In this document: in pieces, positions 8,425-30,569 of the stretch
Layout of the letters: every line of letters begins with the position of its first letter
Position numbering within the stretch: position 1 is the stretch's first letter
From: a virus
Taxonomy: Duplodnaviria > Caudoviricetes
IMG/VR virus record: IMGVR_UViG_3300021431_000084
Length of the DNA: 64,000 nucleotides
Strand: one strand, 5' to 3'
Position numbers and translations under genes: made by a program
The notes under the pieces: model-generated
Database searches by the model: none
The model's input: only the letters and a program-made list of their open reading frames with translations
Told to the model about the DNA's origin: nothing

Positions 8425-8940
8425 TTATATAATTTCGGCTCTTTCCTTAAACTTTTCTTCAGCAAATTCTTCTGCTTTTATATCACCAGCTTTTATTATT
8501 AAACCTCTATCTTTTCCAGATTTAGTCCAATAGTAAAATGTACCCGCATAGGCATTTTCATTTATAATAACCGTGCACTCATACACTCCATCTGCTTCTG
8601 GTAAATGAGTAACATAGCACCCATCAAAACCATTTTCCTTTTCCAGTTCACCGTGAAGATAAACATAAGGAGTTGCTTTGAAGGTATAATCTTTAACTCC
8701 TATAACCTTTACATAATCTACTATGGTAACAAAATATACACTCCAAGAACCGAAGTCGCAATAAACTTCTCCCCTGTCTCCCAACCAGCTACGAGTGAAA
8801 TGAGGGTTAGAAAAACCCCATTTTTCCATTTCTTCTAAACGAGCCTTGTAATATTCTTCATAGGAGAAATATTCGCCTATTTTAGTACGACTTTTAATAC
8901 CTTCTGCTGGATATTCAAGATATAACATATATTTCTTCAT
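8425..8940 (-). CDS. hypothetical protein (RSW..Y.DFGSWS family)
   Basis: N-terminal domain similar to 20876-21091. Confidence 0.65.
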   Translation of the reverse strand: MKKYMLYLEYPAEGIKSRTKIGEYFSYEEYYKARLEEMEKWGFSNPHFTRSWLGDRGEVYCDFGSWSVYFVTIVDYVKVIGVKDYTFKATPYVYLHGELEKENGFDGCYVTHLPEADGVYECTVIINENAYAGTFYYWTKSGKDRGLIIKAGDIKAEEFAEEKFKERAEII

Positions 8941-21776: not shown

Positions 21777-21868
21777 TGGCGATGGTACTCAGACTCGAAC
21801 TGAGACGTCGCTTACACGACTACTCATGGTTTAGCAAACCACTGCCTTACCATTAGGCTTATACCATC
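21777..21868 (-). tRNA. tRNA-Ser(GCT)
   Basis: long variable arm, CCA. Confidence 0.9.
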
Positions 21869-23342: not shown

Positions 23343-23371
23343 ATTATAACATAAAAAATTAGAGTTGTCAA
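23343..23371 (-). promoter_or_regulatory. sigmaA promoter for RNA operon
   Basis: TTGACA-17-TATAAT. Confidence 0.8.
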
Positions 23372-23411
23372 GGAAAATTTAAAGGGCCAACACTAATTGC
23401 GCGGCCCCCGT

Positions 23412-23486
23412 TGGAGTGAGTAACGGGATTTGGACCCGTGTCCCTGCCTTGGCAAGGCAGAATAATAACCACTATACGATACCCAC
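23412..23486 (-). tRNA. tRNA-Gly(GCC)
   Basis: cloverleaf, CCA. Confidence 0.9.
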
Positions 23487-23493
23487 ATTTATT

Positions 23494-23571
23494 TGGTGCT
23501 CGCACAAGGATTCGAACCTTGGACCCCTTGCTTGTAAGGCAAATGCTCTCGACCAGCTGAGCTATGCGAGC
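23494..23571 (-). tRNA. tRNA-Val(TAC)
   Basis: cloverleaf, CCA. Confidence 0.9.
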
Positions 23572-23576
23572 ATGTA

Positions 23577-23673
23577 AATGACGCTTTAAAGCCTCCCATA
23601 GGCGATTACAAATTAAATGGCTTGTAATATAAGAATCGAACTTATTGTTAATTTGATTTGCTGTAAGCGTCAT
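23577..23673 (-). ncRNA. Y-RNA-like RNA A (YrlA-like topology)
   Basis: TGACGCTTACAGCAAA...AAGCGTCATT handle enclosing T-arm, closed stem and D-like arm. Confidence 0.7.
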
Positions 23674-23684
23674 AAAAGAAGTTA

Positions 23685-23782
23685 AATGACCCGAAGTGCT
23701 ACGGGATTCGAACCCGCAATGTTTGATTAGCAGTCAAATTGTTTACCATAAACGAGCGTTTTGATTTGCTGATAAGGGTCAC
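23685..23782 (-). ncRNA. Y-RNA-like RNA B carrying tRNA-Ser(GCT)-like body
   Basis: TGACCCTTATCAGCAAA...GGGTCATT handle enclosing D-arm, TTTGA-CTGCTAA-TCAAA and GCGGG-TTCGAAT-CCCGT. Confidence 0.75.
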
Positions 23783-24058
23783 AAAAAAATAAATTGGGGG
23801 AGAGGGAAGATAGGCGTTCCCCAACGCAATAGTTCCCTCAGGTGGGCTCTTTTTTACCCGCATCACCCAAGTCCGGAGCGGTACATTGACGGCTGTCCGC
23901 AAGCCTCTGGTGGGGATTTTGAAGTATCCCTAAACTTTAGAATGAGAGAAGTTAAGTTCAAATTTGATATTACGATACTGCCCCGCACCTTTTGGATAGT
24001 ACTCTCCAAATGTTCTTCTCTATTAAACTATCACAAATTTGATACTTAAAGTCCTCGT

Positions 24059-24138
24059 TGGTGGAGGATACGGGCACCGACCCCGTCTGAATTTTCTGCT
24101 TGCAAGGCAGACGACCACTCCGAGCAGTCCCATCCCCC
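24059..24138 (-). tRNA. tRNA-Ala(TGC)
   Basis: G3.U70, CCA. Confidence 0.85.
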
Positions 24139-24144
24139 ATAATG

Positions 24145-24204
24145 AATGACGCACATAAAAAGAGATTTCAGGTCTTTTTGTTTTTGCTTTGCTGTTGGCG
24201 TCAT
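24145..24204 (-). ncRNA. Y-RNA-like RNA C (minimal)
   Basis: TGACGCCAACAGCAAA...TGCGTCATT with a single hairpin cargo. Confidence 0.7.
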
Positions 24205-24222
24205 ATAAACTAAGTAAAAGTA

Positions 24223-24298
24223 TGGTGGGCCATAGAGGACTTGAACCTCCAACCTTCAGATTAAGAATCTGCTATTCTACCGATTGAATTAATGACCC
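24223..24298 (-). tRNA. tRNA-Lys(CTT)
   Basis: cloverleaf, CCA. Confidence 0.9.
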
Positions 24299-24306
24299 AT
24301 ATAAAA

Positions 24307-24678
24307 TCAATTATCTCTAAAGTGCTTTTCTGCATGACAATTTGCACATAATAATTGGCATTTATCTATTTCTTTATACATTGGTTCTATATCATAATGA
24401 CCTCTATTGTATAAAGCCGCTATTTCAAAATCTTTTTCATTTTCATCTATATGATGAAATTGAAGTGCTCCTATACACTTATTATAACCACAAATTTCAC
24501 ATTTTCCGCCTTTGTATTTAACAAGTTGTTTTTTTATAGCATGACGAATTGCAGTAATAGAAGCCGCTCTTGATTTATTATCATTAAAAGAAGGACTACA
24601 TTCAAAGCAATATTTTCTACTTTCACCATGTGATTTAGTTTCAAAATCTGCTCCACATATTATACATTTCTTTGTCAT
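24307..24678 (-). CDS. HNH endonuclease
   Basis: GGKCEICGY..C..ALQFHH.D...LLCANCH..H. Confidence 0.85.
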   Translation of the reverse strand: MTKKCIICGADFETKSHGESRKYCFECSPSFNDNKSRAASITAIRHAIKKQLVKYKGGKCEICGYNKCIGALQFHHIDENEKDFEIAALYNRGHYDIEPMYKEIDKCQLLCANCHAEKHFRDN

Positions 24679-24692
24679 AATAATTCTCCTCT

Positions 24693-26865: not shown

Positions 26866-28365
26866 TTATCTCTCCACAGAAATTTGTGCATATCTATCAC
26901 TTAAGATAGTGGCAAGCATAGCCTCATAAGGTGTCTTATCAAGATTAGCAAGCAAAGTCTTAAATGTAGTTGCAGAGTGACCAGACAAAAGCTGTACGCC
27001 CTTTCTGTTGGCATCTGCATGGAATGTGTCAGACTGGCTGTTTACATTCCAGAAGATGACGTTAGGAATATCGTAACCGTAGTTAGCGAACTTTCTTCTC
27101 CAATCATCATAGAATGTACCAGAAGCACGAACACAGCCGTTAATCTGCATATCAGAGATAATTACGAGTGCCTTAGGAAGATCCTTAGCGGCGATACGGT
27201 TGTTAACCGCAGTCTCAAGAACTACTCTGAAAGCAGCATCAAGATCTGTACTTCCAGCCCAATCTGCATTAACCATGTTACGAACTCTATCACACACAGT
27301 AGCACCTGTTACAGTAACCAACTTAGGGTTAGTAGAGAAAGTCATGAACTTATTGTGGAAAGGGCCGGTCGCACGCTCTGCGAAGTACATCGCCAAGCCA
27401 ACAGAAGATGCCATAGGCAAGTTGTTGTTGCTAGTCATAGAACCAGATACGTCTGCCATAATGAGTACGTTTGTACCGTCCTCAACATAGTTAGGAAGTG
27501 CCTTCCACTGGGCCTCAAGTACATCGTCTACTGTGCAACGAGAGTTATACCAAAAGCCATAACCACCAGCATTAAGATACTTCTGGACAATATCATAAGG
27601 GAAAAGAGTATTAGCCTTAATCTCCTTCTTACCAGACTTTACATCATCGAGATACTCAACGAATCTTGCACCGTCCTTGCGTGAGAACAAGTTACGATAC
27701 TTAGTCATAGCATTAGAAGGAACCTTATCATATGCGATAGTGCTTAACTCATTTGCAGAGATAGCAATCTCAACAATCTTAAGATACTTACGAAGTGCCT
27801 TAAGAGGTACCTTAAATGAACGAACATTCTTAAATCCCAACTTCTGGGAAGTCAAAATGCCCAACTTACGAGTTGTAGGTGAAGATGCGTCAGGTGTCTT
27901 GATCCACTTCGCAAGAAGTGAAACAGGCTTTCCGGCAAGCATTGCTGCTCTATCCTTCTCGAACTGCTCCTTCATAACTCTCCACATATCGTTCTCACAC
28001 TTAGTTCCGATAAGGAAATACAAGTCATCAAAACGACCATAGTAACCAATAAGACCAATGTTAGGTCTTACAATCTCAGGATATCTATCTGCTGCATATG
28101 CAAGCAAAGTACGGAAAGTATCTCTCTCTCCGAGACCCTCACGAACATCTCTTCCGTAGAAGAGTATCTTTGCGGCGAGCTCCTTGTCCTCTGCGCAGGC
28201 TCTGTCGAAAAGCTCGTATCTACGAGCATCAGGAGCATTACGAAGTGCTCCAATAGTAGCGAAGAGGTCTACAAGACCCTCACCTGAAGATGACAAGCAC
28301 TTTCTACCATTAGCAGTAGAAGTCCAAGAAGTCTCTCTACCAAGTAAATCTGCGAAATTAGCCAT
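26866..28365 (-). CDS. DUF2828-family TROVE/Ro60-like protein with C-terminal vWA domain
   Basis: T.NG....SS....VDLF, LFY.RD.R.G.GER, SLLAKW, V.S.AM..Y...F; MIDAS DVSGSM, FMTFS, ISDMQ, IFWNV; strongly biased codon usage. Confidence 0.85.
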   Translation of the reverse strand: MANFADLLGRETSWTSTANGRKCLSSSGEGLVDLFATIGALRNAPDARRYELFDRACAEDKELAAKILFYGRDVREGLGERDTFRTLLAYAADRYPEIVRPNIGLIGYYGRFDDLYFLIGTKCENDMWRVMKEQFEKDRAAMLAGKPVSLLAKWIKTPDASSPTTRKLGILTSQKLGFKNVRSFKVPLKALRKYLKIVEIAISANELSTIAYDKVPSNAMTKYRNLFSRKDGARFVEYLDDVKSGKKEIKANTLFPYDIVQKYLNAGGYGFWYNSRCTVDDVLEAQWKALPNYVEDGTNVLIMADVSGSMTSNNNLPMASSVGLAMYFAERATGPFHNKFMTFSTNPKLVTVTGATVCDRVRNMVNADWAGSTDLDAAFRVVLETAVNNRIAAKDLPKALVIISDMQINGCVRASGTFYDDWRRKFANYGYDIPNVIFWNVNSQSDTFHADANRKGVQLLSGHSATTFKTLLANLDKTPYEAMLATILSDRYAQISVER

Positions 28366-29805: not shown

Positions 29806-29925
29806 TGGTGGAAACTGTTGGATTCGAACCAACTCCGCTGCTCCCCAAGTGCATAGAAAACAAGTTGCTGTCTTAATCATAAACATGATCGCGTCTTAAG
29901 CGTGCTACCTTTACACCAAGTTCCC
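29806..29925 (-). ncRNA. tRNA-like RNA whose anticodon arm is replaced by an ACAGCAA-containing domain
   Basis: GGGAACT/AGTTTCC-A-CCA acceptor, D and T arms intact; insert AGACGC..ACAGCAA..TGCACT. Confidence 0.7.
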
Positions 29926-30293: not shown

Positions 30294-30384
30294 AATGACC
30301 CCAGACGCGGTTTCTTCAAAACCGCTTAAAAAACAATGGCGAAGAAAAAATATTTAATCAAGATTGTTTTGCGGTTGAGGTCAT
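30294..30384 (-). ncRNA. Y-RNA-like RNA D
   Basis: TGACCTCAACCGCAAA...GGGGTCATT; hairpin GCGGTT-TTGAAGA-AACCGC. Confidence 0.65.
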
Positions 30385-30391
30385 ATATAAA

Positions 30392-30569
30392 AATGACTGA
30401 TAGGGACTACTTTCTCAGATTTCTGGCGAGTCTACCCCAGTGTGCCTTTTCTGGATAAAAGTTTCATAGGAATAATTTTAGCACTTTTATCAGTCTGCAT
30501 TTCCCATATTTGCATAGTAGAATTTTATACTATAAACCATTTTAATAGAATTTGCAGTTAATCAGTCAC
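30392..30569 (-). ncRNA. Y-RNA-like RNA E (long cargo)
   Basis: TGACTGATTAACTGCAAA...ATCAGTCATT with several internal hairpins. Confidence 0.6.

What the first reader, a model, noticed from the sequence alone, without database searches (positions are those of the whole stretch)
23685..23782. Near-complete tRNA-Ser(GCT) body grafted into the Y-like handle
Inside the handle lie a D-like arm (GTTTATGGTAAAC), a perfect anticodon arm TTTGA-CTGCTAA-TCAAA and a canonical T-arm GCGGG-TTCGAAT-CCCGT. The acceptor stem is reduced to GCT/AGC with no CCA. It looks like a non-chargeable anticodon decoy, and a real tRNA-Ser(GCT) exists separately at 21777.
Basis: partly seen in the sequence, partly recalled or inferred. 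Interest (0 to 1): 0.78.

Follow-up and report, generated by a model that had tools for sequence, protein, structure and literature searches.

The report
Phage Ro60-like protein's tRNA-shaped RNA
Among the tRNA genes of a ruminant-gut phage lies a small RNA that keeps a tRNA's anticodon arm but has a conserved 'handle' in place of the amino-acid-accepting end; the same handle marks RNAs that travel with a Ro60-like protein gene, so it is most likely a non-chargeable tRNA mimic in a viral RNA-protein particle, not a working tRNA or a dead gene.

Summary
On the minus strand at 23782-23686, a 7-bp terminal helix and an unpaired CAGCAAA leader enclose a D-like hairpin, a 5-bp/7-nt anticodon arm (GCU) and a T arm. 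There is no acceptor stem and no CCA, whereas all 31 other tRNAs of the array have both.

It is one of five same-strand 'stem + C-N-GCAA' RNAs around a DUF2828/vWA gene. That gene's AlphaFold model matches only Ro60/TROVE structures at the top of the PDB search. The RNA-gene pairing recurs in all but one or two of the ~30 related loci examined (35-88% protein identity).

Short family members carry a covarying hairpin with a CU-NNN-AA loop. Six orthologues of this element keep the handle, leader, D-like hairpin and anticodon arm. Three of them change the anticodon to GCA, erode the T stem and lose the 3-bp acceptor remnant, so it is neither a decoding tRNA-Ser nor a decaying pseudogene.

Metatranscriptome contigs from three studies cover this element joined to its neighbours.

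The 'decoy' function is untested. Earlier notes of this scan report the family on at least 123 other genomes. I found no published description. The closest known systems are Ro60 with Y RNAs (YrlA, Yrn1) and Dictyostelium Class I RNAs.

The parts
23776..23782 (-). 5' strand of the terminal helix ('handle') of element A
   Evidence: Pairs with 23686-23692. Invariant in six orthologues. The equivalent helices of paralogues B-E and of relatives covary.
23758..23775 (-). Unpaired leader carrying the family motif (CAGCAAA at 23765-23771)
   Evidence: The motif C-N-GCAA follows the 5' helix strand in all five window copies and in relatives. It partly matches the 11-nt motif of Rfam RF01414.
23741..23753 (-). 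D-like hairpin with GG in its loop
   Evidence: Aligned to the D arm of the Rfam tRNA model. 100% identical in all six orthologues.
23722..23738 (-). Anticodon-arm mimic: 5-bp stem, 7-nt loop CUGCUAA (anticodon GCU at 23729-23731)
   Evidence: Stem invariant; loop positions 36 and 38 vary among orthologues. Matches the hairpin module of covariance model R1 at 12.3 bits.
23701..23717 (-). T arm (5-bp stem, loop UUCGAAU)
   Evidence: Reduced to 3-4 bp in L026, L048 and L050; L050 shows one compensatory pair change. 65% identity to L026.
23693..23700 (-). 3' linker, including the AGC that can pair with GCU at 23755-23757
   Evidence: The 3-bp acceptor remnant is not conserved in L026, L048 or L050. 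25-50% identity.
23686..23692 (-). 3' strand of the terminal helix of element A
   Evidence: 100% identical to L026.
23578..23674 (-). Paralogue B: 9-bp handle, ACAGCAA, T-arm-like hairpin plus two more hairpins
   Evidence: Model R1 scores 27.1 bits, E 1.3e-4 and 3.8e-6. 90% identical to L026.
24146..24204 (-). Paralogue C (59 nt)
   Evidence: R1 scores 18.7 bits.
30295..30384 (-). Paralogue D
   Evidence: R1 scores 11.2 bits.
30393..30569 (-). Paralogue E (177 nt)
   Evidence: Orthologue at L026:8888-9045.
26866..28365 (-). DUF2828 + DUF7788(vWA) protein with a predicted Ro60-like fold
   Evidence: Pfam PF11443 and PF25043. PHROG 850 'RNA-binding protein', E 3e-124. AlphaFold2 model pLDDT 89. 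The top 13 listed Foldseek PDB hits are all Ro60/TROVE, E 4e-8 to 1e-4, TM 0.44-0.61.
23783..23897 (-). Conserved structured region U, directly upstream of A and joined to it in RNA-library contigs
   Evidence: 88% identical to L026. Consensus fold has 26 pairs, 2 of them with compensatory changes. RNA-library contigs span 23592-23897.
21777..21868 (-). Genuine class-II tRNA-Ser(GCU) of the same array, for comparison
   Evidence: ARAGORN. Rfam 53.4 bits. Long variable arm and CCA.

Best explanation
Element A is a member of an RNA family that accompanies Ro60-like DUF2828/vWA proteins in phages. Family members have a terminal helix followed by a single-stranded ACAGCAA-type motif. In A, the variable 'effector' part is a tRNA-derived body in which the handle stands where the acceptor stem would be.

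Shown here:
- the anatomy;
- the absence of an acceptor stem and CCA;
- family membership by shared design;
- linkage to the Ro60-like gene on the same strand;
- stronger conservation of the handle, leader, D-like hairpin and anticodon arm than of the neighbouring tRNAs;
- a change of anticodon between close relatives;
- presence in RNA libraries, joined to U and B.

Inferred:
- It is transcribed with the tRNA array and released by the tRNA-processing cuts of the flanking tRNAs, as part of a roughly 300-nt U-A-B RNA that may be cut further.
- The helix plus ACAGCAA binds the Ro60-like ring, as the Y RNA stem and its CGAA motif bind Ro60.
- The tRNA-like body presents an anticodon loop, and perhaps a D/T elbow, to a protein that recognises tRNA anticodon arms. 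Candidates are a host anticodon nuclease or a modification enzyme. That protein is thereby tethered to, or sequestered on, the particle.
- It is never aminoacylated and does not decode.

My odds: family member and non-chargeable tRNA mimic, about 0.85. Partner of the DUF2828 protein, about 0.6. Tether or decoy for an anticodon-directed enzyme, about 0.25.
For: Anatomy and lack of acceptor stem and CCA.

Five same-strand copies with covarying helices and the motif.

The same design lies beside the DUF2828 gene in relatives at 35-88% protein identity. These include handle-enclosed, CCA-less tRNA-like bodies displaying other anticodons: L019 AGG and UAG at 54 and 52 Rfam bits, and L020 GUA.

Short members carry a hairpin with a CU-NNN-AA loop. 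97.8% of cells are paired, 7 of 13 pairs show double changes, and 4 of 5 pairs in the hairpin helix covary.

All 26 hits of model R1 at E<=1 lie on the gene's strand.

tRNA-type hairpins occur in 25 of 44 family members, against 3.7 expected.

Ro60-like fold of the protein.

Orthologues keep the handle, leader, D-like hairpin and anticodon stem. They switch GCU to GCA, erode the T stem and lose the acceptor remnant.

Contigs from four RNA-library runs of three studies cover 23592-23897 with no or one difference, and not the flanks.

Precedents: YrlA and Yrn1 are tRNA-like Y RNAs encoded next to Ro60 (PMC4201824). Thermus phage phiLo Ro60 binds two RNAs encoded upstream of its gene (PMC12135203).
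Against: - No binding data exist for any DUF2828 protein.
- A's internal helices are invariant among the six orthologues, so they have no covariation of their own. Five of the six orthologues were found with a pattern taken from the handle, so handle conservation in those five is by construction; L026 is the independent case.
- MFE and RNAalifold prefer an alternative in which the leader pairs with the 5' half of the anticodon arm.
- Model R1, built from short members, does not find A as a whole, only its hairpin.
- Rfam YrlA scores 12 bits (gathering 69) and Class I RNA scores 17 bits (gathering 41.5).
- RNA contigs give neither strand nor ends. They show A joined to U and B, not a free 97-nt RNA.
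- The loop in three orthologues (CUGCAAA in two, CUGCAAU in the third) also resembles the handle motif itself, so 'anticodon mimic' is not the only reading.
- Pfam and PHROGs searches of part of the island's ORFs found no RNA ligase.
Confidence: 0.6

Rival explanations
1. The 7-nt loop is not an anticodon mimic. It is a second, hairpin-presented copy of the protein-binding motif (C-N-GC-A/U-A-A), so A would carry two sites for the Ro60-like protein, for example to bind a dimer. The tRNA resemblance would be only a scaffold inherited from a tRNA ancestor.
For: The loop is CUGCUAA here and CUGCAAA in L026 and L048, the same letters as the leader motif of element E. Leader and loop plus 3' stem strand are near-repeats, with 2 mismatches in 12. 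Thermus phage Ro60 forms dimers on one of its RNAs (PMC12135203).
Against: Short family members display loops that do not fit the motif (CUUUUAA, CUGUUAA) but all fit a tRNA anticodon loop with C32, U33, A37 and A38. L019 and L020 display AGG, UAG and GUA. The R1 hairpin module scores the phage's real tRNA-Lys anticodon arm about as well as it scores A's.
Confidence: 0.13
2. The handles are punctuation of the tRNA operon, unrelated to the DUF2828 protein. They would be processing or stability elements for a host or phage RNase, and A would be a tRNA remnant trapped between two such sites.
For: All copies lie inside tRNA arrays on the transcribed strand. An RNase H-like YkuK-family gene and a metallophosphoesterase gene also sit in the island. 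RNA contigs end near conserved positions.
Against: In many relatives the RNAs sit within about 100-300 nt of the DUF2828 gene even where only four or five tRNAs are nearby (L002-L017, L022, L035, L036). An invariant single-stranded 7-nt motif plus a helix that covaries points to sequence-specific protein recognition. The variable parts are themselves conserved structures.
Confidence: 0.1
3. A is a working but unusual tRNA. The handle would be a precursor scaffold that is removed, CCA would be added after transcription, and the product would decode AGY (or UGY in relatives).
For: ARAGORN and Rfam both call a tRNA. M. smegmatis YrlA is cut by RNase P and receives CCA in vivo (PMC4201824). L019's handle-enclosed bodies score 52-54 bits.
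Against: Only 3 pairs, or 5 of 7 with two central mismatches, can be drawn for an acceptor stem, and they are lost in relatives. Every other tRNA of the array encodes CCA. There is no long variable arm for Ser. The anticodon changes amino-acid identity between close relatives. The T stem falls to 3-4 bp, and the L026 copy is below the Rfam threshold. The phage already has tRNA-Ser(GCU) and two tRNA-Cys(GCA).
Confidence: 0.07
4. A is simply a decaying tRNA pseudogene with no function of its own.
For: The T arm and acceptor remnant do decay between relatives: 65% and 25-50% identity.
Against: The D-like hairpin (100%) and anticodon arm (95%) are better conserved than the neighbouring real tRNAs (69-88%). 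The handle and leader are retained in the independently found syntenic locus L026. The region is present in RNA libraries. The same design recurs in unrelated phages.
Confidence: 0.05

Closest known systems
Bacterial and phage Y RNAs with tRNA-like domains: YrlA (Rfam RF02553) and Deinococcus Yrn1, partners of Ro60/Rsr (Chen et al. 2014, PMC4201824)
   Same: - A small RNA encoded on the same strand within a few kb of a Ro60-fold protein gene.
- The 5' and 3' ends pair, with a short conserved motif in or next to the 5' strand.
- The rest mimics tRNA with D- and T-like arms.
- Yrn1, like A, has the protein-binding stem where the acceptor stem would be, plus an 'anticodon arm'.
- Not generally aminoacylated.
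   Different: - The protein is DUF2828/DUF7788, not Pfam TROVE. The similarity is at fold level only (14-18% identity).
- The motif is ACAGCAA, not GNCGAA(N)G.
- Rfam YrlA scores 12 bits against a gathering score of 69.
- A carries a canonical 7-nt anticodon loop, whereas Yrn1's loop has 6 nt.
- Several differently built copies occur per genome, inside a tRNA array.
Thermus phage phiLo Ro60 with Yrl1 and Yrl2 (PMC12135203; PDB 9KOP, 9L5Y)
   Same: A phage-encoded Ro60 ring with RNAs encoded upstream of its gene, each having a 5'-3' stem flanking a bulge with a short motif. These structures are the top structural matches of the window's protein.
   Different: It has a CGAA motif and a canonical Ro60 sequence family, and no tRNA-like body is reported. 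Binding and PNPase recruitment were shown experimentally there; nothing has been shown here.
Dictyostelium Class I RNAs (Rfam RF01414; Kjellin et al. 2021, PMC7919456)
   Same: A short helix joins the 5' and 3' ends. Directly after its 5' strand comes an unpaired motif, CCUUACAGCAA in the Rfam consensus. The remainder is variable, total length is about 60 nt, and GC is about 30-40%. The short phage members fit all of this. The model hits L003:9920-9983 at 22.8 bits (E 0.06), and A at 17.1 bits.
   Different: All phage hits are below the gathering score of 41.5. Class I RNAs are nuclear genes with a DUSE promoter and are reported only from dictyostelids. Their known direct binder is an RRM protein (Rnp1A). 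A is 97 nt, has one extra base inside the motif, and carries a tRNA-like body.
Canonical tRNA-Ser(GCU), for example window 21777-21868
   Same: Anticodon loop with U33, GCU and A37; T loop UUCGAAU; a D-like hairpin with GG.
   Different: No acceptor stem, no discriminator or CCA, and no long variable arm. The D arm is only 13 nt. The anticodon is not conserved in orthologues.

Membership tests
tRNA (Rfam RF00005) | D arm, 5-bp anticodon stem with a 7-nt loop (U33, purine 37), and a T arm with a T-psi-C-type loop | tested here: met
   35.2 bits against a gathering score of 29, with the arms aligned. ARAGORN calls it. The L026 orthologue falls below the gathering score.
tRNA (Rfam RF00005) | 7-bp acceptor stem with a discriminator and a 3' CCA end (encoded in all other tRNAs of this array) | tested here: not met
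   Four of the seven acceptor pairs are deleted in the Rfam alignment. ARAGORN's stem has two central mismatches. There is no CCA, whereas 31 of 31 other tRNAs have it. The 3-bp remnant is not conserved.
tRNA-Ser (bacterial type, class II) | Long variable arm, and an anticodon identity that is stable among orthologues | tested here: not met
   The variable region is 4 nt. The anticodon is GCU in three aligned orthologues (plus two identical copies) and GCA in three.
Y RNA / YrlA (Rfam RF02553) | Encoded near a Ro60 gene on the same strand | tested here: met
   A lies 3.1 kb downstream of the DUF2828 gene on the same strand. The protein is Ro60-like by predicted fold only.
Y RNA / YrlA (Rfam RF02553) | GNCGAA(N)G / CGAA motif near the 5' end, and a match to the family's covariance model | tested here: not met
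   The motif here is CAGCAAA. YrlA scores 12.2 bits against a gathering score of 69, E 9.3.
Y RNA / YrlA (Rfam RF02553) | Bound by the Ro60 protein | not testable with these tools
   Needs immunoprecipitation or EMSA.
Stem-ACAGCAA RNAs beside DUF2828 genes (no published name found) | Terminal helix conserved in pairing but not in sequence | tested here: met
   The helices of A-E and of relatives differ by compensatory changes. On short members, 96% of helix-1 cells are paired and 3 pairs show double changes.
Stem-ACAGCAA RNAs beside DUF2828 genes (no published name found) | Unpaired C-N-GCAA motif 0-4 nt after the 5' helix strand | tested here: met
   CAGCAAA lies 4 nt after the helix. Invariant in six orthologues.
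Stem-ACAGCAA RNAs beside DUF2828 genes (no published name found) | Same strand as, and close to, a DUF2828 gene across diverged genomes | tested here: met
   Seen in all but one or two of the ~30 related loci examined. 26 of 26 R1 hits lie on the gene's strand.
Stem-ACAGCAA RNAs beside DUF2828 genes (no published name found) | Global match to a covariance model of the family | tested here: inconclusive
   R1 was built from roughly 60-nt members. It finds B (27 bits) and C (19 bits), but only the hairpin of A (12.3 bits).
Dictyostelium Class I RNA (Rfam RF01414) | Short terminal helix followed by the 11-nt motif, about 60 nt long, score at or above gathering | tested here: not met
   A scores 17.1 bits against 41.5, is 97 nt long, and has one extra base in the motif. 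The best phage member scores 22.8 bits. The design is shared, but membership is not shown.

The most novel reading that the evidence does not exclude
The family is a phage toolkit of anticodon-loop displays. Each RNA would clamp onto the Ro60-like ring through the helix and ACAGCAA, and would offer a chosen anticodon arm (here GCU, or GCA in sister strains; UUU, GUU, GUA, AGG and UAG elsewhere) as bait for host enzymes that attack or modify tRNA anticodon loops. The displayed triplet would turn over between closely related phages as part of an arms race. The same handle in Dictyostelium Class I RNAs would then point to an ancient, unrecognised Ro60-like ribonucleoprotein shared by viruses and eukaryotes. 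One unexplained pull-down partner of a Class I RNA, DDB_G0281243, would be the candidate protein to check.
Probability: 0.18. Interest if true: 0.85.

Novelty: new variant of a known kind. Interest (0 to 1): 0.6.

Why it matters
Ro60 and its Y RNAs are a classic but poorly understood RNA-surveillance particle. Why bacterial Y RNAs mimic tRNA is still an open question.

This element belongs to a very large protein family of unknown function: 9,256 clusters at 50% identity. It shows a clean, conserved case in which the acceptor end of a tRNA is replaced by the protein handle while the anticodon arm is kept and its triplet varies. That gives DUF2828 proteins a concrete candidate RNA ligand. It also yields a testable idea: the particle engages anticodon-directed enzymes, a current theme in phage defence and counter-defence.

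There is a practical warning too. tRNA finders will annotate such elements as tRNA-Ser or tRNA-Cys.

This particular element is one more instance of a system this scan has already met many times. Its added value is the orthologue series, the RNA-library evidence, and the pointer to the Class I RNA pull-down protein.

Tried and rejected
- Megablast of 2 kb against the phage collection found no match. Distant blastn gave one 46-nt hit in a 634-kb uncultured phage. It is an uncalled tRNA-like gene with a normal acceptor stem, not a handle RNA.
- No whole genome is held for this window.
- An IMG/VR scan with the anticodon-arm pattern gave two matches in unrelated contexts with no handle or tRNA arms, judged chance matches.
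- Eight of the 14 metagenome hits to the handle pattern show no related sequence downstream and were discarded.
- Rfam gathering searches of the window and seven loci returned only tRNAs. The YrlA hit is noise.
- phmmer of the protein against PDB sequences found nothing. Only the fold search links it to Ro60.
- I could not learn whether Dictyostelium DDB_G0281243 is a DUF2828 protein. The 'longer' homologue search found nothing. The 150 best representatives are all about 500-aa proteins, unnamed and apparently of the same phage-type family. The 2011 pull-down paper is not held, and the supplements and a full-text search gave nothing.
- Promoter and terminator scans found nothing next to A.
- RNA-library contigs do not cover 23400-23591 (apart from two short ~33-nt tRNA-like pieces in one run) or 23898-24300. 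A part without cover is not evidence of absence.
- I saw no pairing of the leader with the anticodon-arm strand in three short members inspected by eye (L002, L003, L009), so I did not build on it.

Full report
**What is there**

The window is a phage-like contig. Identical or near-identical contigs of about 140 kb come from animal, mostly ruminant, gut samples. It holds 32 ARAGORN tRNA calls, all on the minus strand.

The finding lies between tRNA-Ala and tRNA-Val. Read on the minus strand, 23782-23776 pairs with 23692-23686 as a 7-bp helix. Inside the helix, in order:
- an 18-nt unpaired leader with CAGCAAA at 23771-23765;
- GCU;
- a 13-nt D-like hairpin with GG in its loop;
- two A's;
- a 5-bp stem with the 7-nt loop CUGCUAA;
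- a 4-nt variable region;
- a 5-bp T stem with loop UUCGAAU;
- AGC and a 5-nt linker.

Rfam's tRNA model scores 35.2 bits against a gathering score of 29, and aligns every arm except the acceptor, where four of the seven pairs are deleted. ARAGORN calls tRNA-Ser(gct), using an acceptor stem with two central mismatches.

All 31 other tRNA calls end in an encoded CCA behind a full-length acceptor stem. This element has neither, and it lacks the long variable arm of the genuine tRNA-Ser(GCU) at 21777-21868.

**It belongs to a family**

Four more same-strand elements share the design: B 23674-23578, C 24204-24146, D 30384-30295 and E 30569-30393. Each has ends that pair as R-UGAC.../...GUCAU, with inner pairs that differ by compensatory changes, followed after 1-4 nt by an unpaired C-N-GCAA.

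Between D/E and A-C lies a 499-aa gene (26866-28365, minus strand) with Pfam DUF2828 and DUF7788/vWA domains and PHROG 850 'RNA-binding protein'. Its AlphaFold2 model has pLDDT 89 and pTM 0.89. The top 13 listed PDB matches are all Ro60/TROVE structures over the full length: Thermus phage phiLo Ro60, Xenopus and human Ro60, and Deinococcus Rsr. E-values run from 4e-8 to 1e-4 and TM-scores from 0.44 to 0.61. A sequence search of the PDB found nothing, so the link to Ro60 is at fold level only.

**The RNA-gene pairing recurs**

I fetched 24 IMG/VR loci, plus ENA, JGI and Logan contigs found through further homologues, at 35-100% protein identity. Nearly all have helix + ACAGCAA elements on the gene's strand. 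Most sit within a few hundred nt of the gene, even where only four or five tRNAs are nearby.

Twelve short members of about 60 nt align as helix, ACAGCAA, GG, then a 5-bp hairpin with a 7-nt loop CU-NNN-AA, where the triplet is UUU, GUU or GCU (one member has a 6-nt loop). For that structure:
- 97.8% of cells are paired;
- 7 of 13 pairs show changes on both sides, including 4 of 5 pairs in the hairpin;
- slid controls give 22-54% paired.

A covariance model built from these members (R1) finds untrained members, including B at 27 bits and C. All 26 hits at E<=1 lie on the gene's strand.

Across 44 distinct family members, 25 carry a tRNA-type 7-nt-loop hairpin, against 3.7 expected from shuffles. 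15 carry a T-loop hairpin, against 0.4 expected. The sequences are related, so these counts are not independent.

Other phages also enclose whole tRNA-like bodies in the handle. Two L019 elements lack CCA while their neighbouring tRNAs have it: L019:11615-11726 (AGG, 54 Rfam bits) and L019:11739-11841 (UAG, 52 bits). L020:1012-1101 (GUA) also ends without CCA.

**Orthologues of element A**

The syntenic contig L026 (protein 87% identical) aligns over 900 nt at 85% identity. Its copy keeps the handle, leader, D-like hairpin and anticodon stem letter for letter. But its loop reads CUGCAAA, a 4-nt deletion leaves a T stem of about 3 bp, and the GCU/AGC pairing is gone. ARAGORN calls it tRNA-Cys, and Rfam no longer reaches the gathering score.

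A metagenome scan with the handle's 5' strand gave five more copies. Two are identical to the window. Two are window-like, with changes in the leader, the variable region or the linker. Two are L026-like with GCA: one has U at loop position 38, and one has a 4-bp T stem that differs from the window's by a compensatory G-C to C-G change.

Identity between the window and L026, feature by feature:
- D-like hairpin 100%;
- anticodon arm 95%;
- 3' handle strand 100%;
- 5' handle strand plus leader 88%;
- T arm 65%;
- linkers 25-50%;
- neighbouring tRNA-88%.

Selection therefore acts on the handle, leader, D-like hairpin and anticodon arm. It does not act on an acceptor end or on a fixed amino-acid identity. 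This excludes a decaying pseudogene and argues strongly against a decoding tRNA.

Two caveats apply. The internal helices are invariant among the orthologues, so they carry no covariation of their own. MFE folding and RNAalifold prefer a fold in which the leader pairs with the 5' half of the anticodon arm. I did not see that pairing in three short members inspected by eye, and one L026 substitution weakens it.

**RNA evidence**

Four metatranscriptome runs from three studies hold contigs of 284-301 nt, identical to the window apart from one 1-nt insertion. All of them cover about 23592-23897, that is most of B, all of A, and the conserved structured region U upstream of A. They do not cover the flanking sequence, apart from two ~33-nt pieces on tRNA-Val in one run.

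Contigs show neither strand nor ends, and DNA carry-over cannot be excluded formally. Still, the same restricted block in independent studies fits a stable RNA of about 300 nt left after the flanking tRNAs are cut out. Whether A is released on its own is unknown.

**Mechanism**

I take A to be a partner RNA of the Ro60-like protein. The helix and ACAGCAA would be the protein-binding module, by analogy with the Y RNA stem and its GNCGAA/CGAA motif (PMC4201824, PMC12135203). The tRNA-derived body would be the effector module. This is the topology described for Deinococcus Yrn1, where the protein-binding stem replaces the acceptor stem (PMC4201824).

The anticodon triplet changes between close relatives, both here and in the short members, while C32, U33, A37 and mostly A38 stay fixed. 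That fits a displayed anticodon loop offered to an anticodon-directed protein, either as a decoy or as a tether. None of this is tested, and I put it at about one in four. A serious rival is that the loop is a second copy of the binding motif.

**Comparison with known families**

The element fails membership of tRNA because it has no acceptor stem and no CCA. It fails YrlA on both motif and model score.

It shares its design and most of its 11-nt motif with Dictyostelium Class I RNAs (Rfam RF01414). A scores 17 bits and the best phage member 23 bits, against a gathering score of 41.5. Those RNAs have been reported as unique to dictyostelids (PMC7919456). One of the four proteins pulled down with a Class I RNA, DDB_G0281243, has no known function (bioRxiv 10.1101/2020.04.05.026054). 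I could not determine its family.

**Prior sightings and novelty**

Earlier notes of this scan describe the same protein-RNA pairing on at least 123 other genomes, including the Class I resemblance and anticodon display. So the system is not new to the scan. My literature searches found no published description.

I rate this a new variant of the Ro60/Y RNA kind. The specific additions here are the orthologue series showing what is and is not conserved, the RNA-library support, and the annotation warning that such elements are miscalled as tRNA-Ser or tRNA-Cys.

Noticed in passing
window 23783-23900 (-): Conserved (88% to L026), G+C-rich structured region directly upstream of element A. The consensus fold has 26 pairs, 2 of them with compensatory changes. 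It is co-assembled with A and B in RNA-library contigs and has no Rfam match.
   Followed up: partly
window 23898-24058 (-): A further 161 nt between 'tRNA-Ala' and region U is 89% identical to L026, which is more conserved than the real tRNAs. It has no ORF-based explanation and no Rfam hit, and may be another ncRNA.
   Followed up: no
window 24059-24138 (-): ARAGORN's 80-nt tRNA-Ala(tgc) gets no Rfam tRNA hit even at E<=5. It has a non-canonical T loop but ends in CCA. The 87%-identical stretch in L026 is not called by ARAGORN.
   Followed up: partly
window 29809-29925 (-); L002:8304-8420 (seen in the sequence only) and 8425-8539; L003:9640-9753; L004:9719-9836; L009:9730-9843: tRNAs with intact acceptor and T arms, interrupted around the anticodon or variable region by inserts of about 40-50 nt. 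The inserts I read (L002, L003) carry ACAGCAA. Rfam tRNA scores are 40-49 bits. This looks like a second way of fusing the handle motif to a tRNA scaffold.
   Followed up: partly
window 24299-24692 versus L026:13660-13760: Between tRNA-Phe and tRNA-Lys(ctt), L026 has a 67-nt family member with loop CUUUUAA. The window has an HNH endonuclease ORF (24307-24678) at that position, and model R1 finds no such RNA there.
   Followed up: partly
window 23343-23371 (-): A perfect sigma-70-type promoter (TTGACA, 17-nt spacer, TATAAT, with an extended-10 TG) lies inside the tRNA array, between tRNA-Gly(gcc) and tRNA-Met.
   Followed up: no
L035:13602-14045 and L036:13716-14156: Related phages (DUF2828 protein 62-65% identical) encode SmpB, the tmRNA partner protein, a few kb downstream of the Ro60-like gene.
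   Followed up: no
L001:2990-3060 (LR745206.1, 634-kb uncultured phage): An uncalled tRNA-like gene inside a tRNA array. It has a perfect 7-bp acceptor stem, a short variable region and anticodon loop CUUAAAA (a Leu anticodon without a class-II arm). It shares 83% identity with A's D and anticodon region.
   Followed up: partly
window 23722-23775 (-): The leader (CAGCAAAUCAAA) and the loop plus 3' stem strand of the anticodon arm are near-repeats, with 2 mismatches in 12. The leader could therefore compete for the 5' stem strand, giving a possible protein-dependent switch, or this could be just a trace of origin.
   Followed up: partly
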